A program made the translations under genes and the position numbers. The notes below the pieces were generated by a model that did not search any database, was not told the origin of the DNA, and worked only from the letters and a program-made list of their open reading frames with translations. A stretch of 48,875 nucleotides of DNA, the filler included, from Jimgerdemannia flammicorona (lineage: Eukaryota): assembly GCA_003990765.1 (NCBI GenBank). It is 2 parts of 2 records of this genome, joined end to end, with 100 filler letters (N's around TTAATTAATTAA, not from the genome) between each part and the next. Parts side by side here need not be neighbours in the genome. Positions count along the whole stretch, not along the records: positions 1 to 24,390 come from RBNJ01000980.1; 1 more part is not named here. One strand, 5' to 3'. Positions 4,608 to 47,534 of the stretch are shown here, in pieces. Position 1 is the first letter of the stretch. Each line of letters starts with the position of its first letter.

Positions 4608-5174
4608 TGTAAGCACACAACCTCCAAGCTACCGAAATTACACATCACCCTCTGAACAAGCCACTGAAATCACACATGACCTCTGAACAAATCTGGAAAT
4701 CACCTGCTTGATCACGAAGCTGAGTCAATACGAAGTCACAGAATACAAGATTTACACAAATAGAATCTTACCAATCAGGACCAAATGCATATATACCGAG
4801 CACCGAGACATATCGAATCAGAGAACCAAAACAAACAACAACTACAACTTCTAAACATACAAACATGACCACCAAGATCTATACCCATATCCACACTGAC
4901 ATTTGGAATGCCATTGTTAACTGAGTCACACCCCCTCTGCCCCTCATGAATATCCATAGCCTAGCACCCCTCTACTTCATGGAAGCCTGATGGAATGCTC
5001 TGAACATGCTTAGTGAGGCCCACCGAATCGGACAAATCTCAAGCTACTACCAGATCGGCCACCTCCTGGAAGACATAATTGAACACTACCATGATACAGA
5101 CATCACCCAGATGTCTCAACACTAGAAGCTCATTGCCCACAAACATCGAGAACTCTTCTATGAGTAGTGCTCTC

Positions 5175-5370
5175 AAACAAATCAAATATATTCGAATTGA
5201 ATCAAATTGAGATTGATTCGAATTGAATGGAAATAGAGATTTTCATATTCGAATTGAATTCAAATCAAATCAAATTTGAATCGAATTGGGGGTTCAATTC
5301 GATTTGATATGAATCGAATTGGGGGTTTGATTCGATTCGATATGAATCGAATTAGAAGTTCGATTGAGGG
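5175..5370. repeat. hAT subterminal pentamer array (AATCG/AATTG/GATTC); counterparts at 9535-9600 and 9710-9805
   Basis: Directly visible runs such as GAATTGAATCAAATTGAGATTGATTCGAATTG. Confidence 0.85.
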
Positions 5371-5519
5371 TCTCAATTTGTCACATGTAACACATGCTAC
5401 AAAAATTTTTATTGCCAAGTAACTGAAATTCTTTTTATTGTCTATCTCCCTGCACCTGCAATGGTCTACTTCCTGCGATGCCTGGCTATAGCTGCCATCT
5501 GCTAAGCATTGTTATATGG

Positions 5520-6233
5520 TCATTTTTCAAGAGGAAGGTTTGGAGTCAATGGGTTTAACTTTTGGCAAATTTTGGGTAAGATACTGCATGTCTTTTCATA
5601 CCACTGGCAATTGAAGTAGTTCATGCAAGGCTTGCCTCTTGGCCTACTTGGAGCAGTGGCGGCCTTAGCAGCATCAGCAGCCTTGGTAGCATCAGCAGTC
5701 TTGGTGGCATTGGCAGCCTCATTGGTGGCCTTATTGGTAGCCTCATTGGCTGCCTCATTGGCAGCCTCATCATCTTGAATGGTAAGGATGGTGTTATTGT
5801 CTTGAATTGCAGTCTCGTCTTGAATTTCTTGAATGATGGTCTCATTGTCATCTTGAATAGTAATGATGGCCTTGTCATCTTGAATAGTAATGATGGCCTC
5901 ATCATCTTGAGTGGCCTTGTCATCTGTTAAAAGGAGAATAACCTCTTCTCCCTCGCTGCTGCTGGCTGAAAGGAGGATAGCCTCATCTACCTTGTCATCG
6001 TCTAAGTTGTCATCATCGTCTGAATGGAGGAAGATAGCATCATCTGTTGCCTTGATGAATTCTTCAATGGTATCTATAATTTTTCTTTTTTTCCTTTTAT
6101 ATTGAGCTTTGGTGGTGGTTGTTCCTTCTTCATTTAGCCATGTAACGATTCTGCCAATTCGATGATTCATCATTTCAAACACTCCAGAGATGGTTTCAAG
6201 ATAAGCGTGAAGGTTATTTGTGGGAGTATTCAT
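5520..6233 (-). CDS. Passenger ORF inside the hAT, 237 aa, unknown function
   Basis: Open from ATG, with TATAAATA ~70 bp upstream (6301-6308, minus strand). Contains a KRKKRK basic patch, an acidic tract, IITIQDD and ANEA/AADA repeats. Confidence 0.6.
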   Translation of the reverse strand: MNTPTNNLHAYLETISGVFEMMNHRIGRIVTWLNEEGTTTTKAQYKRKKRKIIDTIEEFIKATDDAIFLHSDDDDNLDDDKVDEAILLSASSSEGEEVILLLTDDKATQDDEAIITIQDDKAIITIQDDNETIIQEIQDETAIQDNNTILTIQDDEAANEAANEATNKATNEAANATKTADATKAADAAKAATAPSRPRGKPCMNYFNCQWYEKTCSILPKICQKLNPLTPNLPLEK

Positions 6234-6329
6234 TATGAAAGTTATTAGCGAGAGAAATGTTTTTTTTTTTTTTTTTCTTTTCTCACCATTAGAGACAGCT
6301 TATTTATACGTTTTACCTGATGTCATAGC

Positions 6330-6750
6330 CATAGCCATATCTGAAGTGCCATATCTGAAGCTCTTGACTATATATGTTTGAAGCACCACCTGACTATATA
6401 TGTTTGAAGTACTGCCATATCTAAAGCTCTTGGCTACATATATATTCAAAGCACCACCTGACTATGTATGTTCAAAGTGCCACCATATCTGAAGTGCTGC
6501 TATATCTGAAGCTCTTGGCTACATATGTTCGAAGTACCACCATATCTGAAGCTCTTGGCTATGTATATTTGAAGCACCACCTGCACTTAAATCTGTTAAG
6601 TATTTGTCTCAGCATTTGCTCACTGTCACTGACAAGAACCAAGAGTTTGCTCTTTGCTGCCATATTCGAAGCACTGCCATATCCACTTGGCTACGTATGT
6701 ACTGCCATATTGGAAGCTCTCGGTGCCACCACATCTGAAGCGGCTATCAT
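6330..6750. repeat. Degenerate tandem repeat with core GCCATATCTGAAGC inside the hAT
   Basis: About ten recurrences of (G)CCATATCTGAAG, interspersed with GCACCACCTGACTAT and CTCTTGGCTA blocks. Confidence 0.8.
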
Positions 6751-6854
6751 TTTGACCAAGGGGTTTTATTTGAAGGTATATGTATCAGAAATTACCAGAA
6801 AAAAAATATATATATATATTTTAAGATTTTGAGATTGACTAGCTTATTGGAATA

Positions 6855-7966
6855 TTAGACTGATTGCTATGCCTTTAAACACATATATTCACAAATTGTT
6901 TCAGGGTCTAAAGCATATCTTTTTAATGATACAAGATCTTTACCCTTTGAAAATATTCTTTCAATTGGCATGCTTATTATGGGGATGGCTAAATAGTCAC
7001 ATGCCATTTTTGTTAGATTTGGGAAATCTCCACTATGGCCCTAATATTTTTCATAAATGATTAAATCAAAAAGAAATTCTAAAATTTCAATTTGAATATA
7101 CATATATAAAAATTCTCAACTTACTTGCCACCAAGATAATATATCAACTCCTGGTGGATATTCAACAGTTTCATGTTTCAAATAAATATCTACCTCTTGC
7201 TCAGGAATCGCCGTCAGTTTCTGTCATTTGTTAAACATATGTTCTTGTAGTTCAGCATCCACATCATCTCTAGTATCTTCAATATTAGAACTTGCTCAAT
7301 AAACTGATCCAGCTAGAGGGGCATAGGTTGCATTATAGGTTATGTAAAATGCATTTTTCACCTCTTCAATCCACTCGGGTTCCCAATTGTGAGATATATA
7401 ATATTGTAATTTAAGCCTAGGATTGAGTACTGGTTTTATTCAAAAAAGAAAAAAATTAGTTTAATTTCGAAATATAGCCAACATTATTTTGAATATATAT
7501 ACTTACTGGTACCAATATAATAAATTGGAGTATCTGTCCTTTTATAATATTCTTTCAACTTAACAATAGCTGCTGTTAGTGCCAGGTGAATGGGATTCGA
7601 CTCTTCGGTATTATTATCCTCCAACTTATCTAGTAAGAAGTTGTAAATCAGAACAGTAGAATAAATTGTTGAATATTTATGCTGCATAGCAAGATCTATT
7701 GCTTGTTTGAAGCACTTTAGAATACCAACAATGTCTTTTAACACCTGCCAAGTATAATCTTCAATGGCATATTTTTGAAAATCCCTATCAGCAATAATGG
7801 TTGCAGTTAAGGGCTAAATATAATATATATATAATAGTAATTAATTTGTTAGATTATCACTCATAAATAAATTAAATATATTCAATTCAAAATATTTTGA
7901 AATATTTTGAATCGAATTGCCAATTCAATTTGATACTATTTGTTGGGAGTACTGATCTGAAGAATG

Positions 7967-7997
<31 letters not shown>

Positions 7998-9513
7998 CTT
8001 ACTTCTAATAATTCTAAGGCTTGTTCAATTATCGAATATGTTGAATTCCATCGAGTTCTAACATCCAATATGAGTTCTTTTGGATTGCTGATTCCAAAAA
8101 TTCTATATTACTTAGCAAATTGCTCTTGACACTGTAGTGAAGATCAGATCTTGGTAATAATCATTCAGAGCCTTGATATTTCTCCATTCTCAGTTATATT
8201 ATCATCTTCACTCTCAGCCTTCAGACAGATTAAAAATGCCTGAACAGCCAGGTTAATGATATGCACCAGGTAGTATACATGTTGTATTGGTGGATTGTTA
8301 AGGTAAGTGTGATCGAATTTCTCCTGAATTATTCGAAAAAACACATTATTGTTGGATGCATTGTCTATTGTTATAGCCAATATCTAGAGTGAAAATCAAT
8401 AATTTGAAATATAAGATAACTGTATTTCGAAATATATATATATTTTTTTAAAAAAAAAAATCACAATCTTTTTCATGTGAAAATATAAAACAAAACCACC
8501 TGTTTCCAAAATATGAAATTATATATCTTTATTGATATCCCAAAGTCTCTAATATAGTTCATGAAGGCATCAGCAAGATTTTCACCTGAATGAGGTCCTG
8601 ACAGCTTGACAAAATCAATCAACATACAGTTGAGTTGCTAATTCTGACTGATCTAATGTGCATTAATTTCAAGAAATACATGCATATTAGGTGATGTCCA
8701 TGTGTCAATAGTGAAAGATATTCGACCAAATACATTCTATTTCCAAATAAATTAATCGGAATGAGCTTAATTCGAATTAAGATTTGAATAAGTCAAAATA
8801 TTAAATCTTACCTGTAGCTTAATTTTGATGGCATCATGACTCCGTTGAAAAGCTAGTCTGATTTCATTTCGAATAGTTCCAGCAGAAGGAATAGTAATGT
8901 CTGGTTTCAGAAGACAAAAAATATCTTTCAGCTCTAAACTCTCAACAACTGTAAAAGGCTGATTATTATCAATAATCTAGCAAATGAGCTTGTCTTGAAA
9001 TAACTATATAGAGAATTTTGGCTATTTAAAAAAAAAGAGTTCTTAGGACACTCATCAGCATAGCCACCAGCTCCCCCAATTACAACATGGTCAAAAGGTA
9101 AACCATACTTGTAATAAGTACGAATCTATCATTCTAACCTGAAGACTCTTATGGTGTTTGTTGAAATGCATCCACAAATTTGTTGTTGAGCTACCTTTAG
9201 ACTTATATTTTACTTTACAGTGGTTATACTTCAGAATGACTTCTCTATCATCCTTGTGCACCTTCGTAAACTCCTTCCAAATATCAGAGTGTGTATGGTG
9301 TGCTCTTCCTTTTCCTTTTGCAGATTGTATTGAGGTTGTTACTACACTTATTGAAGTTGTATCTATTGACATCATGACTGTTATTATAGTATCCTCTGTA
9401 ACTAATAGTGGTGTAAAAGGCTCATCTGACATGCTTGAATACATTAAGGAAGGTAGTTGTATATTGTGAGTTTCAACGCATGTGAGTTTCCAATTACCAT
9501 ATTGAGTTTCCAA
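6855..9513 (-). pseudogene. Intron-containing hAT transposase with BED zinc finger
   Basis: BED-like SDIWKEF...NHC...SSTTNLWMHFNKHH; FTIDTWTS; GPHSGENLA; ITIDNASNN; DVRTRWNSTY; C-terminal dimerisation region LSWW...FPNLTKMACDYLAIPISSMPIERIFS. GT-AG introns, e.g. ~9004-9109 and ~8738-8811. Premature stops. Confidence 0.92.
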
Positions 9514-10746
9514 TTACCATATTGAGTTTTGAGGATCGAATTGAATTGATTTGATTTGACTTTGGAATCGAATCAAATTGATTTGATTCGATTCAATATT
9601 ATTGAGTTGACTGTCACATCATTTTATTTATATACTAGTATTGTAATATTTATAATTGGGCAGTGGCTTACATGACTATAATCCCTCATTCAGCTGATAG
9701 AGAAATCTTATCAAATCAAATTGAATTGAAACTTGAATCAAATTGGCCTCAATTCAAATCAAATCGAATCAAATTTGACTTATATTCAATTCGATTCGAT
9801 TCATTAAGAGCACTATCTACAAGTATAGCACCATTATTCTCTACCTCTAAGTTACTACAGCTGAAATGGTTGCTACCCAGTCCTATGGCCAAATTGATGA
9901 CATGATACAAGAACTCAATCACAAGTATCTCGAGTACGTCGAAACCACAGACAGAACCTTCCCACACTCCAATGATCATATCCTGCAAATGCCTCAAGTT
10001 GGATATACTATGAAGGACATCTACAATATAATCCACTTCAATGAAGATAAAGCAGAAGACAATGATCCCTCTGATGCTGACATGACCTCTAGTCAAGGAT
10101 CTCTGCCAACCCTGATCACACCACCAACCTTGCCAATAAACTTACAACAATTTATAACAGTATATGAGACTTATTGGGACAATGACCACTGGCATGAATA
10201 CCAACCCGCATTCACTCCTGATTACTTCAACTACAATGAAGAGACCAGAGAACATGACCTGTACCTCCAGACAACCCTCAAGATTGAACCAACCACTCCA
10301 CCACTCAAGTATGAGTGATATGAACCACAGCCACCAGCTTACTACAACCCCATGACTCATAGTGCTGTAACCTATAGAAGGTATGCAGACAGTGAATCTA
10401 ATGAAAGTGAAGATGATGCACTCCTCCTTCACCCACCAACACCTTATCCAGCATATGAGACAGATGATGCTATTCTGTGGGATAGTGATGAAGTTCCAAT
10501 GTATTATTACCTCAGTGAACAAGGAGAAGTAATCCACAAACCATTCTTCCTAGATGACTACTTCATCAGAGATGATACAATTGATGGTGATGTCATTGAA
10601 GACTACCCAGACAGTGCCTGAACCATAAATAGCCTAGCAGTCATAGTATAGTTAGATTAGCCTTGTACTATATGACTGTATTTCAACTCAGCAAGGCACT
10701 TAGTGCTATATCCATATTCAGCATAGTACAGATAGCCCCTCACTAG

Positions 10747-10754
10747 TATAAATA
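10747..10754 (+). promoter_or_regulatory. LTR TATA box of element B (second copy 19007-19014)
   Basis: GTATAAATACCCCC in both LTR copies; the same motif occurs in the LTRs of element E. Confidence 0.7.
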
Positions 10755-11223
10755 CCCCCTCCCCCAGATCTCAGAATCTCAGACTCGAACATATAAGAAC
10801 ATTCCTGAATACTTCCCCACAACATCCCTTCATACAACTACTCCTAGTATAGCAATATTATGAATAGCAAATAAACCTATTTAATAACCCACAAACCACT
10901 CTTAAGTAAATCCGCTCTCCATTAGGTCTCACTTCTAACCCCATCACGAAATTTCCTAATTGGGTATTGTCTGCAGTGATACACTAATTCAACTAAGCTG
11001 GTCTTAGTTTCTTGAACTTCCTGAAATACGGAAAATCCTGAACATCCAGAACTAGTCCAAAAAAGAACTTTGATTGAGACATCAACTCGATCTTGAAATC
11101 AATAAGTGTAGAGGATGTATTCCATATGAAATTGATCTTGACCAATAGAAAATAGTCTTCCAGAATATCCAGAACTTTCAGAACTACATAACAGTTACCC
11201 TAAAAAGCAACCCTCTTATAACT

Positions 11224-11236
11224 TGGTAGCAGCAGT
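11224..11236 (+). promoter_or_regulatory. Primer binding site of B1, initiator tRNA-Met type
   Basis: TGGTAGCAGCAGT three bases after the LTR end. TGGTAGC complements the 3' end (GCUACCA) of eukaryotic tRNAiMet. Confidence 0.8.
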
Positions 11237-13247
11237 TTATAATCCAATTCTGCTTCAAGACACTTCCTCACTCTACTACAAACCCTTCTGAGAATTCCTA
11301 CAAGTTGGTATAAAGCCCAACCTCTGAACTGGAATTTATCCCGAACTATCTGACAATCTGGAGAGAATTGAACCTGACATACAAGAACAATTTGACCTCT
11401 ACACCACAACAAGTGGGATAAACTTTATTCAAAGAAAGAAGTACTCCAGTTAAACTAGCAAATAGGTGAAACCCTATTTACTGAACTCCTTGCACTACAT
11501 CCAGCAAGTCAAGATGAAGAAGGTCTTATTGATGCCTTCTTTACTCTTCTCAATAAGAGTTTTATTAGCTCCACAAATCTGAGCGACCTAGGACAACCAG
11601 CAGCAGTCTTCCTAGCCTTAGTTCCTCACAAAGCCCAAGCCTCTGTAGTCAAGTGGCTCAACTCTACTGACTTTCACCATACCAGGACCAAGACTGCATT
11701 ATATTATTGATTCCAGAACAGCAAGGCCTACTATATTCTTAAAGAAGAAGTAAGAGAAACCCTTCATCAACTACCTGACCCTGAACCTGAAGCAGGCCCT
11801 GTTACAGCCCTACCTGAATCTGAAACCAATACCAAACCTGAACTTGACTTTGAATTAAGTCCATCTGAAATCAGATATACAACTGATTCTATCTACTTTG
11901 ATGCCAAGCAAACCCAATTACACAGGGATCAAACCGAAGAGAAAGAGGAGTATCTCAGTGAATTCGATCCCGGATATACCATAGAAGGAGAAGTACCTCC
12001 ATCAGGACAGAATATACCTACACAACAACAAACAGTTATCTATTAAGCCCTCACTCCAGACCCACAACTACTACTCCAGCAACTTATACAGACCCAAAGA
12101 ACTCCATCACACTCTGCACCAGTACCTCAAGTAGTACTAGTAACACCACTACCAGCAGTTCAACTGCCTCCAGTAAACAACATGGCGAACCAACAGATTC
12201 TAGACCTCACAGCTCAGGTAGCCATAATGGCAGCAACCATTACTGCCTTAGCTAAACAGACCCAACCCACCAAAAAATCTGAGCCTACCTACCTTCAATG
12301 ATACTGCACAAGAAGTCCAAAGCTTTATTAGTGTAGTTGACACAAACTTCGAAGCTAATCAATGGACCAATGAGTGAGTTACTGACTGCGTTCTGACAAA
12401 CAATCAAGACCATACTCTGGAACAACTCTTTGCTACCACTACAGCCTATATCCACTGAGTTGTTACATTCTTCCAAGGACCTGCTGAAGAATAGTGGCAA
12501 ACTCTTCCTGAAAAACCCCTCACATGGGATACCCAACCTGCAGTAGTTGCTCAGAATGTAGCAAACAATGCCCCAGGATATAGAGCCCATCCTGCAGCCC
12601 CTGGACTCAAACAACTCATGATTGCCCAATACTGCAGTGAAACCATGATCCCTGAATCCCGAGTAAAACTCCACAACCTCAAATTCAATATACATGGCAA
12701 AGAAGAATTCGAAACCTTCTGTACAAAACTCGAGTCATTCCTGAACACTGTTGGCCTAGGATATATCACCAATGATGAAGCATGAAATGGTATAAGAGCA
12801 GACCATTTATTTGATGCCCTGCCTGAACGGCTTACTAGAAAGATCCAAGAACAAGGCCGCCCAGTTGGTTGTGATCACCAACAATGGTGCCTGGCAAAAA
12901 TCAAGACTATGGTCAAGCAAATCCTAACAGCTGGACCAATTCTGCTCTGAAGACAATTCAACAATAAGGAAAGAACTTGGACCAAGAAAGAAGAACCTAA
13001 GCATGAAGCATCCCGAGCTCCCTCCACATCCACCTCTTGGACACCCAGAAATCACAAACCCACTCAGCCAAGTATCTTCAAGAAACTTATTGAAGGCGAA
13101 AGGAATGAACTTCGAAGAAGCAGAGCATGCTTCTATTGCTGAAAGACAGGACATATAGCCAGTACCTGCCCTAACCAAAAACCCTGAATAGCAACAAGAG
13201 CAACTATTACCACTCTGCACCACCTCAACAATCTGACCACCAGAACA

Positions 13248-13655
13248 CTAGACTTTGTGAAGTTAAGATAAACTGCTAAGGCCCCAACCAAAGGAAGCCA
13301 AAAAGCAGCTGGATATGACCTGTATACAGCCGAAAAAGCTACAGTTTTCAACTGAGAAGTCAAACAAGTCTATACAGGAATCAGCATCCAAATCCCTGAA
13401 GGACATGTTGGAAGAATATGCTGTTGCAGCAGCCTAGCATTGAAAGGACTCTCAGTAGAAGGAGGAGTTATCGATGAAGATTACACAGGCGAAATCATTA
13501 TCCTCATCTGAAACCATAGTTGGACACCCTTCAAGATCTCTATTGATTTCTGCATTGCCCAGATCCTATTCAAAAAAATCAAGTCAACCCAGACAGTCAA
13601 GGAAGTCTCTGAACTACTGCCCACCATCCAAGAATCCAAAGGATTTGGCTCATCA
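13248..13655 (+). pseudogene. dUTPase domain of B1 (B2 copy at 21509-21920)
   Basis: KAPTKGSQKAAGYDLY, TGISIQIPEGHVGRI, SSLALKGLSVEGGVIDEDYTGEI, IAQILF, KGFGSS. Confidence 0.92.
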
Positions 13656-16600
13656 AACAAGACTCCAACTCAACCTACTACAAGCAAAGAAGAACAATTC
13701 TACAAGAAGATCGAAGATAGATATGTATCAAGTGGCTGATGCCCTCATGGCATTGGAATGTACTCTTCCCAAATGATTGATGATTGCTTCTCTTGTATCA
13801 ATGAACTGGCTCAAAGAAGAACCAACAGAAGGAAAGCTCCTACAACTGAAATCACCACCATTGGATCAGACAAACTGCTCACACTTAAGGCTTTTGTCAA
13901 CCGAGCACCTGTCAAGATTATGATAGACAGTGGTGCCTCAGGCAACTTCATCAATGAAGAAACAGCCAATAGACTTAAGGTCTTCACCTCTCCGGTACAA
14001 CAAACCCAAGCAGTAGCTACAGCTGATGGAACCTCACATGTTATTAGCAAGGAAGTCCACAACCTACCCTTCCGAATTGGTGATTACTGAATATATGTTA
14101 CTCTCCAAATTGTACTACTTCCTGACAATAAAATCATCCTTGGGACTCCATGGTTAAAACAAGAGAACCCTATGATCGATTGGGTAAACCATTCTCTGAC
14201 CATCAAGAAAGGATGCCACAACTTCAAACTGCAAGGCGAGAAGGACCCACTCAATTCTAGTAATCCTGGACTAAAGATCACCCACATCAACAAGCTACAA
14301 CTTAAGAAATTGGCCAAGAAATGCCCTCTCTTTGCCATCTCCATCCATCCATCCAAAGGAGAACCCAAGAACTCTGAAGAAGATTTTTCCAAAGTTGATA
14401 GCCATGTCAGACCACTACTCCAGAAATTCCAAGACATATTCCTAAAGAAACTCCCAAAAGGCCTACCTCCTAAACAACCAGTAGACCATACCATCAAGAC
14501 TATCCCAGATGCCAAACCAGCCTTTAAGTCAATCTACCACATGTCTCTAAGAGAAATTGATGCACTCAAGAAAGAAATTGATAAACTCCTAGAATAAGAA
14601 TTCATCAGACCCAGCATATCACCTTATGGTGCACCAGTCCTATTTGTTGTTAAGAAAGGAGGAGACCTGTGAATGTGTATTGACTACCATGACCTCAATG
14701 AACAGACCATCAAGAACTGTTGCCCACTACCAAGAATCGATGAAATATTCAATAGACTCACTAACCCGCAATTCATGAGCTCCTTTGACCTGCAAAATGG
14801 TTACTGGCAAATTGCCATGAAAGAAGAAGACATCTACAAGACAGCTTTCTGAACTCACTATGGATACTTTGAGTTTCTGGTTATGCCCTTTGGCTTAACT
14901 AATGCTTCTGCAACCTTCCAGATCCTGATGAATACTATCCTGTACCCATACCTAGACAAATTCATTATTATCTACATTGATGATATCCTAGTCTTCAGCA
15001 AAACTCTGGAGGAACATCTTGAACACCTTGAACTAGTTCTACTGAAACTCCGAGAAAACCGACTCTTTGCAAAACTCAGCAAGTGTGAATTTCTTCTGAA
15101 AGAAATTCAATTCCTTAGACACATTGTCACTCCAAATGGAATCAAAGTGGACCCTAGCAAAATCTCTACAATCAAGGATTGGCCCAGACCCAAGAAGCTG
15201 AAAGACCTCCAGTCATTCCTGGGGTTAGCAAACTATTACAGGCAATTTGTTGCCAACTTTGCTAAAATCACTACTGCTCTCACCCAAATGACCAAGCACA
15301 GTAAGAAACAAGAACAACCCTGGACCATGAAACAAGAGAAAGACTTCAACAATCTTGTAAATTGGGGACCCGAGCAAGATACCACCTTTCAAGTACTGAA
15401 GGATGTCTTGATAACCACTCTAGTACTTCAAGTGGCAAACTCTGCACTGCCATATGAAGTTACCACTGATGCTTCTGACCTAGTCCTTGGAGCAGTACTT
15501 ATGCAGGAAGGACACCCTGTGGCCTATCACTCCTGTAAGTTCAATGATGCTGAAATTAACTATGCAACCCATGAGAAGGAAATGCTAGCCATTATAGATA
15601 CTCTGATCAAATAGTGACCCTATCTAGAAGGAGCACACTTCACCATATTAACTGACCACAAATCATTGGTCAATATCAAGACACAGGCTACCCTTTCTCA
15701 AAAGCAAGCCAGATGGATGAAAGTCCTTACCAACTTTGACTATGAAATCCAGTACTACCCTAGCAAGGAAAATATTGTTGCTAATGCAATCTCTAGAACA
15801 TCAATTGAAGAGGTTATCCAAACTCTCACCTTGGTTACAAACTCCATCATGGAACAAATTATCACAACATGTACCAATGATAAGGAAGCTCAAGCACTGT
15901 GAGAAATCCTGAACAGTAATGATGCCAACAAATATACACAGTATCACCAATACCAACTGAAAGACAATGCTATCTACTACAAAGATAGACTGTATGTCCC
16001 AAACACCTGAGACCTCTGAAGGACTATCCTATTCAAATGTTATGATGCCCCTACAGCTGGACATTTAGGATTTGATAAATGTTATGAAGTTATCTCTTGA
16101 AACTTCTATTGGCCCTGCATAGCAGATCAGCTCAAAACCTACATCACTTCCTGTAATGCCTGCCAATGAAGTAAGTCCTCAACACTAGCAAAACCCGGCT
16201 TACTTCACCCTATCCCAGTACCATCTGCAAATTGGGAACAAATCTCTATAGACTTCATTGTACAACTATCCTGAACCAAGAATGGGAAAGATGTAATTGT
16301 TGTCTTTGTAGACTATCTCAGCAAACAAGCCCACTTTATGCCTACTACTACTACTGCAACAGCACCAGACATAGCCACACTCTTATTTGACAACATCTTC
16401 CACTATCATGGTCTTCCTAAGATCATTGTTAGCGACCGAGATCTGAAATTCACCAGCCATTTTTGGAAAGCCCTCTATGCACACCTTGGAACAAAACTTG
16501 CACTATCCACAGCCTTTTACCCAGAAACTGATGGCCAAACTAAAAGAATGAACTGAACTCTAGAATAAATGCTAAGGAACTATGTTTCCTACAGACAAGA

Positions 16601-17147
16601 TAACTGACATGAACACCTCACTGCAGTCAAGTTTGCCTATAACAATAGCAAGCAAGCCTCTCTTGGAATGACCCCATTCTTTGCCAACACTGGACAAAAT
16701 CCAAACACCCCTTTGACACTTATCTGAACCACTGAAGAACCCTCTACAGTAGAAGCTATTGAAGAATTCTTACTTCAAATGCGCAATCTAAGCCAGATTG
16801 CCATCAAGAATTTATCATGAGCTCAAGAACAACAGTCATAGTATATTAACCAATACTGCCAAGAAGAAATCTTTGATATTGGAGAAAAAGTTCTACTGGA
16901 CATCAGAGGATACCGAGTTGACAACCTCAAGCACAGACCATCTACAAAGCTGAACAGCAAGTTCATTGGACCATTTGAAGTCATTGCACAAGTCTCTCCA
17001 ACCTCCTACAAATTGGCACTACTGGACACCATTAAGATTCATCTAGTCTTTAATGTTCAACATCTCAAGTGATACAATGAGAATGATGATGAGCTATTTT
17101 CAAACTGGACCACCAAACCACCTGTACCTGTCATTATTAATGATTAA

Positions 17148-17300
17148 GAAGAGTACGAAGTTGAACAAATCCTCAACAAACATGGCAACAAGAGCCACCC
17201 TGAGTATCTTGTCAAATGGAAAGGTTACCCAATCCATGATGCAATCTGGAAACCCAAGACCAATCTCCAGAATACTACTGACCTAGTTCAGGAATATGAT
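17148..17300 (+). pseudogene. Chromodomain at the C-terminus of the B1 integrase
   Basis: EEYEVEQILNKH...EYLVKWKGYPIHDAIWKP...NLQN. Confidence 0.9.
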
Positions 17301-17513
17301 TCCTTGAATAACTAGAACCAAGTACCCTACACCTATCCATACATACTATATATTATTCTCCTGAACATTATAATTATTGCAAACCAAACCAAGAACCCAG
17401 TAAAACAAGACAAGAATACTGACCCTCTGGAAAAATGGCAAAACTGAAAGCAAGCCTATTCCCCCTGTACCACTGAACAAAATTAGAAGGCCCCAATGAG
17501 GACATCAAAAGCT

Positions 17514-17527
17514 AAGAAGGGGAGAGT
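17514..17527 (+). promoter_or_regulatory. Polypurine tract of B1
   Basis: AAGAAGGGGAGAGT immediately before the TGTAAG start of LTR2. Confidence 0.85.
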
Positions 17528-19493
17528 TGTAAGTGCACAACCTCCAAGCCACCGAAATTATACATTACCCTCTGAACAAGCCACTGAAATCACACACAAC
17601 CTCTGAACAAATCTGGAAATCACCTGCTTGATCACGAAGCTGAGTTAATATGAAGTCATAGAATACAAGATTTACACAAATGAAATCTTACCAATTAGGA
17701 CCAAATGTATATATACCGAGCACCGAGATGCATCAAATCAGAGAACCAAAACAAATAACAACTACAACTTCCAAACACACAAACATAACCACTGAGATCT
17801 ATATCCATATCCACACTAACATTTGGAATGCCATTGTCAACTGAGCCACACCCCCTCTACCCCTCATGAATATCTATAGCCTAGCACCCCTCTACTTCAT
17901 GGAAGCCCGATGGAATGCTCTGAACATGCTTAGTGAGGCCCACCGAATTGGACAAATCTCAAGCTACTACCAGATCGGCCACCTCCTGGAAGACATGATC
18001 AAATACCACTATGATACAGACATTACCCAGATGTCTCAACACCAGAAGCTCATCACCTGCAAACATTGAGAACTCTTCTATGAGTATAGCACCATTATTC
18101 CCCGCCTCCAAGTTACCACAGCTGAAATGGTTGCTACTCTGTCCTATGGTCAAATCAACGACATGATACAAGAACTCAACCACAAGTACCTCGAGTACGT
18201 TGAAACCACAGACAGAACCTTTCCACACTCCAATAATCATATTCTGCAAATGCCCCAAGTTGGATACATTATGAAGAACATCTACAATATAATCCACTTT
18301 GATAAAGATGAAGCAGAAGACAATGATCCCTCTGATGCCGACATGACCTCTAGTCAAGGATCTCTGCCAACCCTGATTACACCACCAACCTTGCCAATGA
18401 ACTTACCACAATTCATAACAGTATATGAGACTTATTGGGACAATGACCACTGGCACAAATACTAACCCATGTTCACTTCTGATTACTTCAACTACAATGA
18501 AGAAACCAGAGAACATGACCTGTACCTCCAGACAACTCTCAAGATTGAACCAACCACTCCACCACTCAAGTATGAGTGATATGAACCACAGCTACCAGCT
18601 TACTACAACCCTGCAACTCATAGTGCTGTAACTTACAGAAGGTATACAGACAGCGAATTCGATGAAAGTGAAGACGATACACCCCTCCTTCACCAACCAA
18701 CACCTTATCCAGCATATGAGACAGATGATGCTATTCTGTGAGATGGTGATGAAGTTCCAATGTATTATTATCTCAGCGAACAAAGAGAAGTAATCTGCGA
18801 ACCACTCTTCTTAGACAACTACTTCATCAGAGATGATACAATTGATGATGATATCATTGAAGACTACCTAGATAGTGCCTGAACCATAAATAGCCTAGCA
18901 GTTATAGTATAGTTAGATTAGCCTTATACTACATGACTGCATTCCAACTCAGCAGGCACTTAGTGCTACATCCATATTCAGCATAATCCAGATAGCCCCT
19001 CACTAGTATAAATACCCCCTCCCTCAGACCTCAGAATCTCAGACTCGAATACACAAGAACATTCCTGAATACTTCCCCACAACATCCCTTCACATAACTA
19101 CTCCTAGTATAGCAATATCATGAATAGCGAATAAATCTATTTAATAACCCACAAACCACTCTTAAGTAAATCCATTCTCCATTAGGTCCCACTCCTAACC
19201 CCATCATGAAATTTCCTAATTGGGTATTGTCTGCAGCAATATGCCAATTCAACTAAGCTGGTCTTAGTTTCTTGAACTTCCTGAAATATGGAAAATCCTA
19301 AACATCCAGAACTAGTCCAAAAAAGGACTTTGGTTGAGACGTCAACCCGATCTTGAAATCAATAAGTATAGAGGACATACTCCATATGAAATTGATCTTG
19401 ACCATAAGAAAATGGTCTTCCAGAACATCCAGAATATCTAGAAAATCTTTCCAGAACTATGTAACAGTTACCCTAAAAAGCAACCCTCTTATA
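17528..19493 (+). repeat. LTR2 of element B (1966 bp), shared between the two internal regions
   Basis: Preceded by a PPT and followed by a PBS (TGGTAGCAGTAG at 19497). Confidence 0.95.
17785..18882 (+). pseudogene. LTR-encoded accessory ORF, copy 2 (365 codons)
   Basis: One frame containing ORFs 17866-18069 and 18127-18465. The start is ATA where copy 1 has ATG, and it ends DYLDSA*. Confidence 0.75.
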
Positions 19494-19495
19494 AC

Positions 19496-22400
19496 TTGGT
19501 AGCAGTAGTTTATAATCCAATTCCACTTCAAGATGCTTCCTCACCCTGCTACAAACCCTTCTGTGAATTCCTACAAGTTGGTATAAAGTCCAACCTCTGG
19601 ACTGGAATTTATCCTGAACCATCTGACAATCTGGAGAGAATTGAACCTGATGTACAAGGACAATTTGACCTCCACACCTACAACAAGTGGGATAAACTTC
19701 ATTCAAAGAAAGAAGTACTCCGGTTAAACCAGCAAATAGGTGAAACCCTATTCACCGAACTCCTTGCACTACACCCAGCAAGTCAAGATGAAGAAGGTCT
19801 TATTGAAGCCTTCTTTACTCTTCTCAACAAGAGTTTTGTCAGCTCTATAAATCTGAGTGATCTAGGATAACCAGCAGCAGTCTTTCTAGCCTTAGTTTCT
19901 CATGACGCCCAAGCCTCTGTAGCCAAGTGGCTCAACTCTACTGACTTTTACTGTACCAGGACCAAGACCACATTATACTACTGATTCCAGAACAGTAAGG
20001 CCCACCATATTCTTAAAGAAGAAGCGAGAGAAACTCTTCATCAACTACCTGATCCTGAACCTGAAGCAGGCCCTGCTATAGCCCTACCTGAATCCAAAAC
20101 CAATACCAAACCTGAACTTGACCTTGAATTAAGTCTCTCCAAAATCAGATATACAACTGATTCTGTCTACTTTAATGCCGAGCAAACCCAATTACACAGG
20201 GACCAAACCAAAGAGGAGGAGGAGTATCTTACTGAATTCGATCCTGGATATACTACAGAAGGAGATGTACTCCCATCAGGACAGAATATACCTACACAAT
20301 AACAAACAGCTATCTATCAAGCCCTTACTCCAACTACTCCAGCAACTTACACAGACTCAAAGAACCCCATCACACTCTGCACCAGTACCTCAAGTAGTAC
20401 CAGTAACACCACTACCAGCAGTCCAACCACCTCCAGCAAACAACATGGCAAACCAACAGATTCTTAATCTCACAGCCCAAGTAGCTATAATAGCAGCAAC
20501 CATTACTGCCTTAGCTGAACAGACCCAACCTACCAAAAATCTGAGCCTACCTACCTTCAATAGTACTGCACAAGAAGTCCAAAGCTTCATTAGTGTAGTT
20601 GACACCAACTTTGAAGCCAATCAATGGACCAATGAGCGAGTTGCTGACTACATTCTGACAAACAATCAAGACTATACACTGGAACAACTCTTTACTACCA
20701 CTACAGCCTATGTCTGCCAAGTTGTTACATTCTTCTGAGGACTTGCTGAAGAATGGTGGTGAACCCTTCCTGAAAAACCCCTCACATAGGATACTCAACC
20801 TACAGTAGTTGCTCAGAATACAGCAAACAATGCCCCAGGATATGGAGCCCATTCTGCAGCCCCTGGACTCAAACAACTCATGATTGCTCAATACCGCAGC
20901 GAAACCATAATTGCCAAATCTCGAGTAAAACTTCACAACCTCAAATTTGATGTACATGGCAAAGAAGAATTTGAAACCTTCTGTACAAAACTCGAGTCAC
21001 TCCTGAACACTGTTGGCCTAGGATACATTGCCAATGATGAAGCATGAAATGGTATAAGAGCAGACTACTTATTCGATGCCCTGCCTGAATGGTTTACTAG
21101 AAAAATCCAAGAACAAGACTGCCTAGTTGGTTGTGACCACCAACAATGGTGTCTGGCAAGAATCAAGACTATGGTTAAGCAAATCCTAACAGCTGGACCA
21201 ATCCTGCTCCGAAGATAATTCAACAACAAGGAAAGAACTTAGACTAAGAAAGAAGAACCCAAGCATGAAGCATCCCAAGCTCCCTCAACATCCACCTCTT
21301 GGACACCTAGAAATCATGAACCCATCTAGCCAAGTACCTTCAAGAAACTTACTGAAGGCAAAAGGAACAAACTTTGAAGAAGTGGAGCATGCTTCTATTG
21401 CTGAAAGACAGGTCACATGGCCAGTGCCTGCCCTAACCAAAAACCCTGAACAGCAACAAGAGCAACTGTTACCACTCTATACCACCTCAACAACCTGACC
21501 ACCAGAACACTAGACTTTGTCAAGTTAAGACAAACTGCTAAGGCCCCAATCCAAAGAAGTCAGAAAGCAGCTGGATATGACCTGTATGCAGCTGAAGAAG
21601 CTACAGTTTCCAACTGAGAAGTCAAACAAGTCTACACAGGAATCAGCATCCAAATCCCTGAAGGACATGTTCAAAGAATATGCTGTCACAGCAGCCTAGC
21701 ATTGAAAGAACTCTCAGTAGAAGGAGGAGTCATTGACGAGGATTACATAGGTGAAATTATTGTCCTTATCTGAAACCACAGTTGGACACCCTTTAAGATC
21801 TCTATTGGTTTCTGCATCGCCCAGATCTTATTTGAAAAAATTAAGTCAATCCTGACAGTCAAGGAAGTCTCAGAACTACTGCCCACTATCTAAGGATCCA
21901 AAGGATTTGGCTCATCAAACAAGGCCCCAGCCCAACCTACCATGAGTAAAGAAGAACAATTCTATAAGAAGATTGAAGATGGATATGTACCAAGTGGCCA
22001 ATGCCCTCATGGCATTGGAATGTACTCTTCCCGAATGATTGATGATTGCTTCTCTTGTGTCAATGAATTGGCTCAAAGAAGAACCAACAGAAAGAAAGCT
22101 CCTATAACTGAAATCACTACCATTGGATCAGACAAACTGCTCACACTTAAGGCTTTTGTCAACCGAGCACCTGTCAAGATTATGATAGACAGTGGTGCCT
22201 CAGGTAACTTCATCAATGAAGAGACAGCCAACAGACTCAAGGTCTTTACCTCTCCAGTACAGCAAACTCAAGCAGTTGCTATGGCTGATGGAACCTCACA
22301 TGTTATTAGCAAAGAAGTCTACAATCTACTACTCCAAATTGGCAACTACTGAGTACATGTTACCCTCCAAATCATACCACTTCCTGACAATGAAATCATC

Positions 22401-24390
22401 CTTGGGACTCTATGGTTAAAACAAGAGAACCCCATGATCGATTGGGTAAACTATTCTCTGACCATCAAGAAAGGACACCACAACTTCAAACTGTAAGGCA
22501 AAAAAGACCCACTTAATTCTGGTGACCCTGGACCAAAGATCACCCACATCAATAAGTTACAACTTAAGAAATTGGCCAAGAAATGCCCACTCTTCGCCAT
22601 CTCCATCTGCCCATCCAAAGGAGAACCTGAGAATTCTGAAGAAGATTTTTCCAAAGTTGACAGCTGTGTCAGACCACTACTCCAGAAATTTCGAGACATA
22701 TTCCTAAAGAAACTCCCGAAAGGCCTACCTCCTAAACGAGCAGTAGACCATACCATCAAGACCATCCCAGATGCCAAACCAGCCTTCAAGTCAATCTACC
22801 ACATGTCTCTAAGAGAAATTGATGCACTCAAGAAAGAAATTGACGAACTTCTAGAGTAAGGATTCATCAGACCCAGTGTATCACCCTATGGCACACCAGT
22901 CCTCTTTATTGTCAAAAAAGGGAGAGACCTGTGAATATGCATTGACTACTGCAATCTCAATGAACAGACCATCAAGAACTGTTGCCCACTACTGAGGATT
23001 GATGAAATATTCGATAGACTTACCAACCCACAATTTATGAGCTCCTTCGACCTGCGAAATGGTTACTAGCAAATTGCTATGAAAGAAGAAGACATCTACA
23101 AGACAGCTTTCCAAACTTACTATGGACAGTTTGAGTTCCTGGTTATGCCCTTTGGCTTAACTAATGCCCCAGCAACCTTTCAGACACTGATGAATACCAT
23201 TCTGCATCCATACCTAGACAAATTTGTTGTTGTCTACATTGACGACATCCTAGTCTTCAGCAAAACCCTGGAGGAACATCTTGAACACCTTGAACTAGTA
23301 CTACTGAAACTCTGAGAAAACCAACTCTTTGCAAAACTTAGCAAGTGTGAATTTCTCCTGAAAGAAATTCAATTTCTTGGACACATTGTTACTCCAAATG
23401 AAATTAAAGTAGACCCCAGCAAAATCTCTGCAATCAAGGATTGGCCCAGACCCAAGAAGCTAAAAGACCTCTAGTCATTCCTGGGATTAGCAAACTATTA
23501 CAGGCAATTTGTTGCCAACTTTGCTAAAATCGCTACCGCCCTCACCCAAATGACCAAGCACAGCAAAAAACAAGAACAACCCTGGACCATGAAACAAGAG
23601 AAAGACTTCAACAATCTTGTAACTTGGGGACCCAAACAAGATACCACCTTTCAAGCACTGAAAGATGCCCTGATAACTACTCCAGTATTTCAAGCGGCAA
23701 ACCCTGCACTATCATATAAAGTTACCACTGATGCCTCTGACCTAGCCCTTAGAGCAGTATTCATGCAAGAAGGACACCCAGTGGCCTATCACTCCTGCAA
23801 GTTCAATGATGCCGAAATCAACTACACAACTCATGAGAAGGAAATGCTAGCCATTGTAGACACTCTGATCAAGTGGCGACTATACCTAGAAGGAGCACAC
23901 TTCACTATATTGACTGACCACAAGTCATTAGTCAACATCAAGACCCAGGCTACCCTTTCTCGAAAGCAAGCTAGATGGATGAAAGTCCTCACCAACTTTG
24001 ACTACGAAATCCAGTACCACCCTGGCAAGAAAAATATTGTTGCCGATGCAATCTCCAGACCACTAATCGAAGAGGTTATCCAAACTCTCACCTTGGTTAC
24101 AAACTCCATCCTGGAACAAATTATCACAGCATGTGTCAATGATAAGGAAGCTCAAGCACTACGAGAAATCCTAAATAGTGACAATGCTGACAAGTATACA
24201 CAGTATCATCAATACCAACTGAAGGACAATGCTATCTACTACAAAGACAGACTGTATGTCCCAAACAACCAAGACCTCCGAAGGACTATCCTATTCAAAT
24301 GTCATGATGCCCCTACAGCTGGACATTTAGGATTTGATAAATGTTATGAAGTTATCTCCCAAAACTTCTATTGGCCCTGTATGGCAGATC
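19496..24390 (+). pseudogene. B2 polyprotein from leader to integrase zinc finger, truncated by the spacer
   Basis: ORFs 21942-22352 (DSGASG), 23079-23315 (YIDD) and 23550-24390 (RNase H, CHD...GHLG). Colinear with B1. Confidence 0.95.
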
Positions 24391-24770: not shown

Positions 24771-25280
24771 TCAGTCATCATCCCAATAGGCATAAACAGC
24801 TTCTGCATCTATACCTATTCCATCATCATCTGAGCTACAGTTACTCCATTCCAGGGGCTCTTCTTCTTCCTCAGGAAATAGGGTCTCCACTTGGTGAATA
24901 ATGCTGAGGTAGGTGGGCAGTGTCATCCTTTGAAGGTCATTCAGGGAAAACTGGGCCTGGATTAAGGCAGAAGAATTTCATTTATATATTGTATATAGTC
25001 TGTCTGCAGCAGTAGTGTTCCTTCTGTTCAGGCCAGGGGTGTTTTGGACATAGGCTAGGTCTGGGAGAGGAAGATTCTGCAATTGTTCTCTAATTGCATA
25101 ATATGCCTGCAGCTGGTGGATCTGAAGTAGCCTCTCGGCCAAAGTGAGGTTCTCTTGATGAACTCGGATTCTCTGAAGATAGGTTCTATTGGGTTCCCGG
25201 AACTGAGGCAGAGGAACTGGTAGGGCTTGGAGGGAACTGAGAACAAGAGTTTGGAGGCAGTTGTCAATTCTCTGATTCAT
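24771..25280 (-). pseudogene. 3' accessory ORF of element D (~170 aa)
   Basis: ORF 24978-25280 continues in frame past one TGA into an acidic tail (PEEEEEPLEW...YWDDD*). It lies between integrase and the LTR. Confidence 0.65.
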
Positions 25281-27969: not shown

Positions 27970-28369
27970 TCCTGTCTGAACTTCCAAATCCCTTGGCTTG
28001 TCTTGTTCCTTCGGCTAGTTCAGAGACTTCCTGTAACTGTGGGGTCTTGACCTTCATGAAGACTGCTTGGGCAATCTTCTGTCCTCTAATGATTTGGTGC
28101 CATTCTGCACTGCTGTTGTGTAGGATAACCTTGATTTCGCCTATATATCCAGGGTCAATAGTTCCTCCTTCTACAGTTATTCCTTGTCTGGCAAGTCCGG
28201 ACCTTGAGGTCAGTTGAATATAAGCTCCTTGAGGTGGCTGTATGGCTAATCCAGTTCTGACCATGAAGGTTTTTCCAGGCTTGATGGATTCATCCTCTAG
28301 GCTGTGAAGATCATATCCTACATCCTCTGGGTGGGCTTTGGTCAGGGGTTTGGCCTTGGGGTACAGCAA
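27970..28369 (-). pseudogene. dUTPase domain of element D, between protease and RT; frame still open
   Basis: DVGYDL, TGLAIQPPQG, SRSGLA, GGTIDPGYIGEIKV, IAQ and RQAKGFGSS in ORF 27734-28369. Confidence 0.95.
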
Positions 28370-37219: not shown

Positions 37220-38052
37220 TTAGAAATGAACATCCTCATTGATTCAGAAATTGAGAACCAGGGGAGAGAAATGTGGGGAATCCTCCTCTGGGTTGTTGCC
37301 ATCTTCTTCAGTAACAGGGAGGGTGGTTGCTGATGGTTTGCTGTCCAGAGTGGAGAAGTCAATGAGGTCTGCACATGGTTCTTGCATAGAAATGGGTGCT
37401 GGTGTAGGAGTTCTCCATCTGATGTAGTTGGGGCCATCCAAGTAGGGTTCTTGGTCCTCATGCCTGAGAATATCCATTTAGATAGGCAGTCCTTCAAAGA
37501 GGTCAGAGAGGTCTTGGAGCCATTGGTCTGGGTTATTATTCAGGAGGGGACTCCAGTAGGGTTCGCAGTCAGTAGACTGAAGAGAGATCCAGAAGTTGGC
37601 TTCTTGGGCTACCTTGATCTCAAGCTCATCAACCTTGGAGAAAGAGAGATTTTGGAAATCCTTCAGTTGGACATAGTTGAGGTTGGAGATTGCAAAGAGT
37701 GTATAGTGCATGATTTGCTGGCAAGTCTTTGCTCATGTCTATCCAGGTGGGTCCAGTCAGAGACCTGGTCAGTAGATAGATTCTTTGCCCATTGGAGGAG
37801 TTGATGGCCAATTTTATATTCATGCCAGATCTCTAGGTGGCTGGTAGCAAGGTAGGCCCTTTTAATGACCTTGCAGTGGTTGAGAACATAATGTTCTAGA
37901 TCCTGGCTGGAGAGGTTAAGGGCCTCTGAGTGGCAGTTTCTTCCTTGGATAGCAACCTGGATGTGTCCAAAGAGGCAGTCAACCTGGCTTGGGAGGGGCT
38001 AACTATGGCAGGCAGTTTGGTGGTAGGTAGCTTGGTTGCAGGTAGCAGGCAT
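37220..38052 (-). pseudogene. 3' accessory ORF of element E (~270 aa), frameshifted at ~37715
   Basis: ATG at 38052, then ...HLEIWHEYKIGHQLL..., then ORFs 37478-37711 and 37244-37477. Homologous to 47535-48350. Confidence 0.75.
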
Positions 38053-38116
38053 TCTTGTCTTATCTTTTCTTTGTGAAGAGAGAGGGATGAGGGTTGCAGG
38101 GTATTCTTGCCTTGGG

Positions 38117-38124: not shown

Positions 38125-38274
38125 CTTATTCACCCATCTAGTGTGACCTTCCTTTGGTCATGCTTTCTAGCAAAATGTGTGACCTATTGCTGTAAACAGA
38201 GCATGTGCTGATCACATGAGAAAATTCTGATTTCCAAGATATCATCACTTATAGTTATGGTTACACAGGGTTAA

Positions 38275-38519
38275 CAGGTCTTGGTCCTCTTTTTTTTTGT
38301 CTGGTTGGTGCATTTGCAAGGACTGGCCATCCTTGTCTAGGGCAAGGGCTCTCATTGTCATGGTTGGGGGTTTGAACCTCTCAGAAATAGACTTTTCTTA
38401 TAATCCGAGGCAATTCCTAGTAACAATATCTGTCACATGGATGGACTTAGACTGGTTTTGACATTATTGGCTTTCCTAAGTTCCATATAAAGCATTCATC
38501 ATCATATAGCAGAGATGAC
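38275..38519 (-). ncRNA. Conserved non-coding element, candidate structured RNA (copy in E)
   Basis: Nearly gap-free nucleotide alignment to 46997-47244 of element F, with several hairpins in the CpG-restored consensus. RNA function is inferred only. Confidence 0.45.
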
Positions 38520-38719
38520 ACAGGTGGCATGAAATAGAGTTGTTCAAATGCATTTTGCTGTAATATGCTAGACTGTCCTTTACTCAGACTTCTTCATGTT
38601 GGTTATCTATAGTGTTCCTTTTTTCACAATGTTTGATATTATATGTTTCCAGATAAAATATGTAGTGTCCTTCTGCTCACTGTGTGCTCCAATACTTAGA
38701 GCTGTAGTTCTTTCCTTTG

Positions 38720-46996: not shown

Positions 46997-47244
46997 ATCA
47001 TCTCTATTAGAGAATGATAGATATTTCATATAGAACTCAAGAAAGCCAATATTATTGAAACCAATCTCAAGTTCATCTATATGATAGATATTACTACTAG
47101 AAATTACCTTAGATTATAGAAAATATTATTTCTGAGAGGTTCAAATTCTCAGCCATGATAATGAAAGCCCTTATCCTAGATAAGGATGACTAGTTCTCAC
47201 AAATGCACCAATAATCCAAAAAAAAAAAAGAGAATCAAGACCTG
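46997..47244 (+). ncRNA. Conserved non-coding element, candidate structured RNA (copy in F)
   Basis: Homologous to the reverse complement of 38275-38519. Confidence 0.45.
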
Positions 47245-47534
47245 CTATTTCTATATAACTATCTCTACTGAGAATAACTCTAATTTTACAAGGAGTAGAT
47301 ATAACAACATCTTAAAAACTGATAACATCAAAAGCTAGAAGATAGCTCAGACTTTATAAGCCTCTGGTTATAAATTGTAACTCAACTATAACTTATAGTG
47401 ACCTCAGTAGTATACTACTCCAAATTAGGTAACTCTACTCTCTAGACCAAAGAAAAAGACCCTTAGAATATAAAAGAGATATCAAAAGGAGTATAAGACA
47501 TTATCTATAAATAAGAAACTCACTATAAAATAAA

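What the first reader, a model, noticed from the sequence alone, without database searches (positions are those of the whole stretch)
17528..19493. A 2-kb LTR contains a complete 365-codon gene in its U3 region
Seen: the accessory ORF of B lies wholly inside the LTR, downstream of the PPT and upstream of the main TATA (19007). It is therefore duplicated at each end. A TATATA box lies ~75 bp before its start (~4790 and ~17708). In D, E and F the homologue sits upstream of the PPT. Established: U3-encoded genes are known from retroviruses (MMTV sag, the HIV nef overlap) but are atypical of Ty3/Gypsy. Inference: a PPT shift captured the gene into the LTR, so even solo LTRs could express it.
Basis: partly seen in the sequence, partly recalled or inferred. 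Interest (0 to 1): 0.7.

Follow-up and report, generated by a model that had tools for sequence, protein, structure and literature searches.

The report
Protein gene inside fungal retrotransposon LTR
The long end-repeat of a very abundant fungal jumping gene carries its own selected protein gene of unknown family, probably a regulator; the copy in this window is a dead, mutated one, but intact copies exist elsewhere in the genome.

Summary
The architecture is real, but the window copy is not a complete gene. 17528-19493 is a true 2-kb LTR of a chromodomain Ty3/Gypsy family in a probably early-diverging fungus. Its ends are fixed by the PPT, the PBS and solo LTRs with 5-bp target duplications. 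A 365-codon frame (17785-18882) lies inside it, upstream of the main TATA. Here it lacks a start codon and has five stops. Of 30 other copies picked by protein score, 13 are intact ATG-to-stop, one in a solo LTR. Stops track CpG loss (rho -0.73). Shared variants show strong purifying selection (dN/dS 0.10). The protein has a helical N-domain and an acidic tail, and no significant family or fold match. Element D's pre-PPT ORF is a probable remote homologue; the link to E and F is not significant. The 'PPT shift' has no relic, so its direction is unresolved. Expression is unshown. Best guess: a separately transcribed regulator, a Tas-like DNA-binding activator (about 0.4). The scan already noted this ORF family on other DNA of this genome (eight notes). 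Six literature searches listed no Ty3/Gypsy with a gene wholly inside U3.

The parts
17528..19493 (+). LTR-b of element B (1966 bp). 3' LTR of the first internal copy and 5' LTR of a second one
   Evidence: Ends fixed on 27 of 30 copies with both ends held, 5 of them solo LTRs with a 5-bp TSD; 91.8% identical to LTR-a
17510..17527 (+). Polypurine tract
   Evidence: Sequence; same tract before the LTR in 8 of 30 loci
17708..17715 (+). Upstream TATA-like box, candidate promoter of the U3 gene
   Evidence: Present in 55 of 55 copies that covered it; A/T motifs are spared by CpG decay, so conservation alone is weak. Family E has TATAAATA 72-73 nt before its ORF3 ATG in 11 of 20 listed rows
17785..18882 (+). 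365-codon U3 gene, decayed here (no start codon, five stops). Helical N-domain about residues 1-145; acidic Pro/aromatic-rich C-part 146-365
   Evidence: open relatives P0002 and P0004
19007..19014 (+). Main TATAAATA of the LTR
   Evidence: 50 of 51 copies
19130..19135 (+). AATAAA, candidate polyadenylation signal in R
   Evidence: 47 of 47 copies
19497..19505 (+). PBS-like TGGTAGCAG site, 3 nt after the LTR
   Evidence: follows the LTR in 13 of 30 loci; the primer was not identified
4608..11220 (+). LTR-a (5' LTR), its copy of the gene split near codon 100 by a hAT-like DNA transposon (5165-9815)
   Evidence: Self-BLAST; inverted termini and 8-bp target duplication with 2 mismatches
11221..17527 (+). 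Internal region of B: gag-pol ending in integrase, SH3 and chromodomain
   Evidence: Pfam RVT_1, RT_RNaseH, rve, SH3_Tf2-1, Chromo E 2e-13
24771..25280 (-). Element D ORF3 (about 170 aa) just upstream of D's PPT; probable remote homologue of the B N-domain
37222..38053 (-). Element E ORF3 (start approximate), stop overlapping the PPT; clearly homologous to F's ORF, link to B not significant

Best explanation
B is a high-copy chromoviral Ty3/Gypsy family whose U3 holds a real accessory gene. SHOWN: the LTR boundaries, intact copies including one in a solo LTR, purifying selection in this frame only, and decay of most copies tracking CpG loss. INFERRED: the gene is a self-contained unit, transcribed from the TATA at 17708 and ended at the LTR's own AATAAA (about 1.4 kb), so 5', 3' and solo LTRs could each make it. 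INFERRED, weaker: the protein is a regulator of the element's own transcription. A helical, possibly helix-turn-helix N-domain would bind LTR DNA and the acidic aromatic tail would recruit host transcription machinery, as foamy-virus Tas does (Tas recalled, not from a call). That gives a positive feedback loop that can act in trans on all copies. The confidence given is for this whole chain; the gene being real and U3-borne is about 0.95.
For: Shared transversion alleles across 57 copies: 34 synonymous and 19 non-synonymous, dN/dS 0.10, p 1e-15; shifted sense frames 0.62 and 3.69. 13 of 30 protein-selected loci intact. Two of 30 DNA-selected copies have a frameshift, with 1-9 stops in frame against 13-20 and 27-48 in the other sense frames. 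An open metagenome relative, P0002, is 66-70% identical to genomic copies. C-part is 22% Asp/Glu, 14% aromatic, net charge -42, with no clear membrane segment (best 19-residue hydropathy 1.14). D's ORF has the same layout, with a 43% acidic tail. The D model (pLDDT 64.5) is all-helical; ParB-type HTH cores recur over residues 58-138: SopB 3mkw Z 4.0, rmsd 4.4, 73 aligned; VirB 3vwb Z 3.6, rmsd 10.8, 84 aligned; KorB 8qa8 Z 3.3, rmsd 5.1, 76 aligned; Spo0J Foldseek E 0.98.
Against: The fold matches are at noise level: no chain reached Z 5, and unrelated chains rank above SopB. The B N-domain model is unusable (pLDDT 46) and shared its alignment with D. The B N-domain is not basic (net -3). B~D homology is only probable (HMM E 0.021; hhalign probability 10%). 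The antisense frame that shares third positions also shows low dN/dS (0.26), as expected from overlap, but it carries a few stops per copy (3-9), close to the sense frame's count. No promoter, transcript or binding was shown.
Confidence: 0.42

Rival explanations
1. The protein is an RNA-binding or export factor (works like CERV of Cer1, or Rev) that helps unspliced genomic RNA leave the nucleus.
For: CERV is an accessory protein of a Ty3/Gypsy-like element needed for gRNA export (PMC10309623, abstract only). Helical bundles also bind RNA, and the fold searches do not discriminate.
Against: CERV comes from a spliced mRNA; here a separate TATA precedes the ORF. The large, strongly conserved acidic tail (codons 141-250 dN/dS 0.01) fits RNA binding poorly.
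Confidence: 0.17
2. The protein counters host silencing: it binds the element or a host chromatin or RNAi factor and protects copies from methylation. Storage in the LTR multiplies its dose.
For: The genome is strongly CpG-depleted (observed/expected 0.16 in the window), so silencing pressure is high. Related or analogous ORF3s sit in three to four lineages here. The conserved acidic tail could be a host-binding surface.
Against: No match to any described suppressor family in Pfam. Copies did decay by CpG loss. Not separable from the activator model by sequence.
Confidence: 0.24
3. Structural or enzymatic helper of the particle, for example an env-like or Gag-associated protein.
For: Sense ORFs 3' of pol are often called env-like (PMC7264820, passages).
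Against: No clear transmembrane segment; no enzyme family match; a promoter in U3 is not the usual route for a particle protein.
Confidence: 0.1
4. Not a gene: a chance open frame in an A/C-rich LTR.
For: The window copy is broken, and 0 of 30 DNA-selected copies are intact.
Against: dN/dS 0.10 in this frame, 13 intact copies, and an open relative at 66-70% identity.
Confidence: 0.02

Closest known systems
Sense additional ORFs (aORF/ORF3) of LTR retrotransposons (PMC7264820 passages; PMC5408684 passages; PMC11963269 passages)
   Same: Extra conserved ORF 3' of pol, present in all copies of a family and shared between unrelated lineages, as in the bdelloid Juno/Vesta elements. A regulatory, DNA-binding role is proposed for Retand TRP28.
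   Different: Those ORFs lie in the internal region before the PPT. Here the whole ORF and its TATA lie in U3, are duplicated and survive in solo LTRs. No env, GDSL, DEDDy or TRP28 match in Pfam.
MMTV sag and lentiviral nef (recalled, not from a call)
   Same: Protein gene in or overlapping U3 of an LTR, upstream of the main promoter.
   Different: These are vertebrate retroviruses with host-immune functions; sag is a membrane protein. No similarity was detected, and this is a fungal chromovirus.
Foamy-virus Tas/Bel1 (recalled; also named in note e1-7508684)
   Same: Proposed mode: accessory gene with its own promoter, DNA-binding part plus acidic activation tail, acting on its own LTR.
   Different: Tas is driven from an internal promoter and is not wholly in U3. 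No homology was found; this is an analogy only.
Fungal chromoviruses with an additional ORF: 'add. ORF' in PMC2864245 (figure legend passage); Boty brtn (PMC8365987 passage)
   Same: Fungal chromodomain Ty3/Gypsy with an extra ORF of unknown function.
   Different: brtn is antisense. The passages read do not place either ORF inside the LTR.
CERV of C. elegans Cer1 (PMC10309623, abstract)
   Same: Regulatory accessory protein of an LTR retrotransposon.
   Different: Spliced mRNA and RNA export; no similarity tested or seen.

Membership tests
Ty3/Gypsy chromovirus (element B) | RT-RNase H-integrase order with a C-terminal chromodomain | tested here: met
   RVT_1 and RNase H at 14883-15611; rve, SH3_Tf2-1 and Chromo E 2e-13 at 16200-17312
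Ty3/Gypsy chromovirus (element B) | TG...CA LTRs, PPT, PBS, 5-bp target duplication | tested here: met
   5 solo LTRs with perfect TSD, 2 more
Ty3/Gypsy chromovirus (element B) | Placement in a named clade such as Tcn1 by an RT tree | not tested
   No named references were in hand; no tree was built
Sense additional ORF of LTR retrotransposons | Family-wide ORF under purifying selection, 3' of pol on the genomic RNA | tested here: met
Sense additional ORF of LTR retrotransposons | Lies in the internal region between pol and the PPT | tested here: not met
   Lies downstream of the PPT, inside the LTR; hence a variant
env-like ORF | Transmembrane segment | tested here: not met
   Best 19-residue hydropathy 1.14
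ParB-type helix-turn-helix DNA-binding domain | Structural match of the N-domain | tested here: inconclusive
   D model: Z 3.3-4.0 only; B model too poor to use
Tas-like transactivator | Binds its own LTR and activates transcription | not testable with these tools
   Only composition is suggestive
One ORF family shared by B, D, E and F | B homologous to D | tested here: inconclusive
   Probable: D-only HMM hits B at 11.8 bits, E 0.021, with 24 of 60 B loci above the best reversed decoy; hhalign E 0.003, 0 of 150 shuffles as high, but probability 10%
One ORF family shared by B, D, E and F | B or D homologous to E/F | tested here: inconclusive
   B vs EF E 0.53, 48 of 60 shuffles as high; D vs EF E 0.014 (1 of 60) with one profile and E 0.45 (86 of 150) with a deeper one. 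E~F is firm, E 2e-22

The most novel reading that the evidence does not exclude
These fungal retrotransposons carry a portable, undescribed regulator cassette (own TATA, DNA-binding domain, acidic tail) that moves between lineages and, in family B, lives wholly in U3. Solo LTRs are then working genes, so excision by LTR-LTR recombination, the host's usual way to delete an element, leaves behind a trans-acting activator or anti-silencer for the remaining copies.
Probability: 0.25. Interest if true: 0.8.

Novelty: new variant of a known kind. Interest (0 to 1): 0.55.

Why it matters
LTRs, and solo LTRs above all, are annotated as non-coding. Here a family with thousands of candidate matches in a 231-Mb genome (4201 and 5172 first-look candidates; not copy numbers) keeps a selected 365-aa gene there. 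If it is expressed, solo LTRs are protein-coding units and a fungal chromovirus has a complex-retrovirus-like accessory gene. It offers a defined protein for asking how retrotransposons expand in heavily methylated early-diverging fungal genomes.

Tried and rejected
Pfam: no family for the window frame; nothing near a cut-off for natural B, D and E proteins. phmmer of P0002 against 1.84 billion representatives found only itself. Atlas: P0002 gave no usable hit and a poor model (pTM 0.15). B residues 1-150 gave a top feature hit of 0.92 to an unnamed 127-aa Mucoromycota cluster, next to unrelated 0.91 hits; a lead only. PDB sequence search with the D profile: best E 0.095, tissue factor, spurious. 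Fold searches found no significant match; absence is not evidence of a new fold. Expression: no RNA holder listed. Two runs only guessed to be RNA gave contigs piled on the part below the main TATA and a few short pieces on the ORF; not used as evidence. A degenerate motif scan for further families gave 505 matches against 137 for the control; of 15 loci translated, 5 were D-like and none showed a new family. L101 looked like a sister of B but is a decayed B LTR with a D element inserted. No relic PPT was found inside the LTR. A conserved ORF crossing U5 and the PBS was rejected: 18 of 19 copies have a stop at 19598 in that frame. One search timed out with no output. A look-up of earlier findings by sequence was empty. 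No tRNA gene in the window. Literature: six searches (listings only) showed no title or abstract on a Ty3/Gypsy gene wholly inside U3; subscription papers and all supplements were unseen, so a description there is possible.

Full report
SETTING. Window positions 1-24390 are contig C980 of G000, a 231-Mb assembly. The window is strongly CpG-depleted (observed/expected 0.16). The host has a fungal-type chitin synthase and a cobalamin-dependent methionine synthase, which points to an early-diverging fungus (marker logic recalled). Element B runs LTR-a (4608-11220, interrupted), internal region, LTR-b (17528-19493), then a second internal copy up to the contig end. Its pol has RT, RNase H, integrase, SH3 and a chromodomain, so it is a chromoviral Ty3/Gypsy.

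Yes. Similarity among genomic copies starts at 17528 and ends at 19491-19494. Of 30 loci, 27 held both ends, giving LTRs of 1966-2104 bp. Five are solo LTRs with a perfect 5-bp target duplication, 8 follow the PPT and 13 precede the PBS-like site. Three loci lacked one end and were left out of the boundary count.

IS THE GENE COMPLETE? Not in this window. The frame 17785-18882 has 365 codons, but no ATG and five stops. LTR-a's copy has stops too and is cut by a hAT-like insertion. Among the 30 copies closest in DNA, none is intact: 1-9 stops each, against 13-20 and 27-48 in the other sense frames; 23 have ATG and 2 have a frameshift. A search with the natural metagenome relative P0002 picked better-preserved copies. 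Of those 30 loci, 13 have an unbroken ATG-to-stop frame, 2 are partial without stops and 15 are broken. The intact set includes a solo LTR with a target duplication (L034). This set is biased to young copies by the way it was chosen. Stop number falls with CpG count (Spearman -0.73, n 58), and 102 of 163 stops lie at sites where some copy has a CpG, so decay after insertion explains most of the damage.

IS IT A GENE? Yes. Using transversions only, to avoid CpG decay, alleles shared by at least two of 57 copies are 34 synonymous to 19 non-synonymous over 316 and 1752 sites: dN/dS 0.10, p 1e-15. The shifted sense frames give 0.62 and 3.69. The antisense frame sharing third positions gives 0.26, as overlap predicts. 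With singletons included the ratio is 0.27. Selection covers the whole length: 0.22, 0.01 and 0.09 for codons 1-140, 141-250 and 251-365. Outside G000, P0002 (247 aa, 66-70% identical) and P0004 (128 aa, 95%) are open relatives.

TRANSCRIPTION UNIT. TATATATA lies 77 nt before the frame (55 of 55 copies), the main TATAAATA 125 nt after it (50 of 51) and AATAAA at 19130 (47 of 47). A/T motifs escape CpG decay, so this conservation is weak alone. Family E gives independent support: TATAAATA 72-73 nt before its ORF3 ATG in 11 of 20 listed rows, three pairs of them duplicates. The inferred unit is a 1.4-kb mRNA contained in one LTR. No transcript was shown.

THE PROTEIN. Residues 1-145 are predicted helical; residues 146-365 are 22% acidic, 11% Pro, 14% aromatic, net -42, with no clear membrane segment. 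No Pfam, PDB or atlas family fits. The B N-domain model is poor (pLDDT 46). The D ORF model is better (64.5) and gives weak, recurring matches to ParB-type helix-turn-helix cores: SopB Z 4.0, VirB 3.6, KorB 3.3, Spo0J E 0.98. None reaches Z 5 and unrelated chains rank higher, so this is a lead only.

D, E AND F. D's 170-aa ORF ends about 40 nt before its LTR and E's stop overlaps its PPT. Plain tblastn links none of them to B. A D profile built without any B sequence hits B in register at 11.8 bits (E 0.021 in 2.3 million residues), with 24 of 60 B loci above the best reversed decoy; hhalign gives E 0.003 with 0 of 150 shuffles as high, though probability is only 10%. B~D is therefore probable. 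E~F is firm (E 2e-22). B~E/F is not significant (48 of 60 shuffles as high), and D~E/F flipped from 1 of 60 to 86 of 150 between profiles. D is a dUTPase-bearing lineage; E is the element whose pol matches B's in DNA.

PPT SHIFT. On the genomic RNA the ORF sits 3' of pol in B, D and E alike; only the plus-strand priming site differs, so a shift is an economical idea. But no purine tract remains between the ORF and the main TATA, and no sister family with the same gene before the PPT was found. Earlier notes report further families with the ORF inside the LTR (not checked here). Direction and mechanism stay open.

MECHANISM. Best guess (0.42): a Tas-like activator of the element's own LTR, made from the upstream TATA and able to act in trans. 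I held a regulatory reading; the Tas comparison with an acidic tail is reused from note e1-7508684 and was then tested only by composition and fold search. Rivals: anti-silencing factor (0.24), RNA-export factor like CERV (0.17), particle helper (0.10), not a gene (0.02).

WHAT IS KNOWN. Extra ORFs of LTR retrotransposons are well described, mostly between pol and the 3' LTR (PMC7264820, passages; PMC11963269, passages), can be shared across lineages (PMC5408684, passages), and occur in fungal chromoviruses (PMC2864245, passages; PMC8365987, passages). A fungal survey describes only gag and pol in the passages read (PMC3248453). CERV: abstract only (PMC10309623). U3 genes of retroviruses (sag, nef) and Tas are recalled. 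Six searches listed no Ty3/Gypsy with a gene wholly in U3; the library is incomplete and no supplements were read.

VERDICT. Real feature, overstated for this copy. New variant of a known kind: an unnamed accessory gene moved into, or kept in, U3 of a fungal chromovirus. The scan has noted this ORF family eight times on other DNA of the same genome. Interest 0.55.

Noticed in passing
window 5165-9815: hAT-like DNA transposon (short inverted termini, 8-bp target duplication, a BED-finger-like ORF at 9091-9444 by recalled motif, and an acidic repeat ORF at 5520-6233) inserted in the U3 gene of LTR-a.
   Followed up: partly
window 4608-24390; L040: Tandem LTR-internal-LTR-internal arrangement: LTR-b has both a PPT upstream and a PBS downstream. 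L040 shows the same junction, so it is not unique to this contig.
   Followed up: partly
window about 19615-20330, + strand: A second low-stop frame of 240 or more codons between the PBS and gag of family B, with no shared ATG and no Pfam match. Possibly a spliced exon or a Gag extension.
   Followed up: partly
window 38272-38559 and 46958-47247: Elements E and F share a 293-bp block at 77% identity upstream of their homologous ORF3, which suggests exchange of the whole cassette between lineages.
   Followed up: partly
window 27734-28264, - strand: Element D carries a dUTPase between protease and RT (Pfam E 5e-19).
   Followed up: partly
window 18912-18958: The window LTR is some 30-140 bp shorter than the other full-length copies; most differ by a segment between the ORF stop and the main TATA.
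   Followed up: no
G000:C14671 and C16748: Host has a fungal-type chitin synthase and a cobalamin-dependent methionine synthase, which points to an early-diverging fungus (marker logic recalled).
   Followed up: partly
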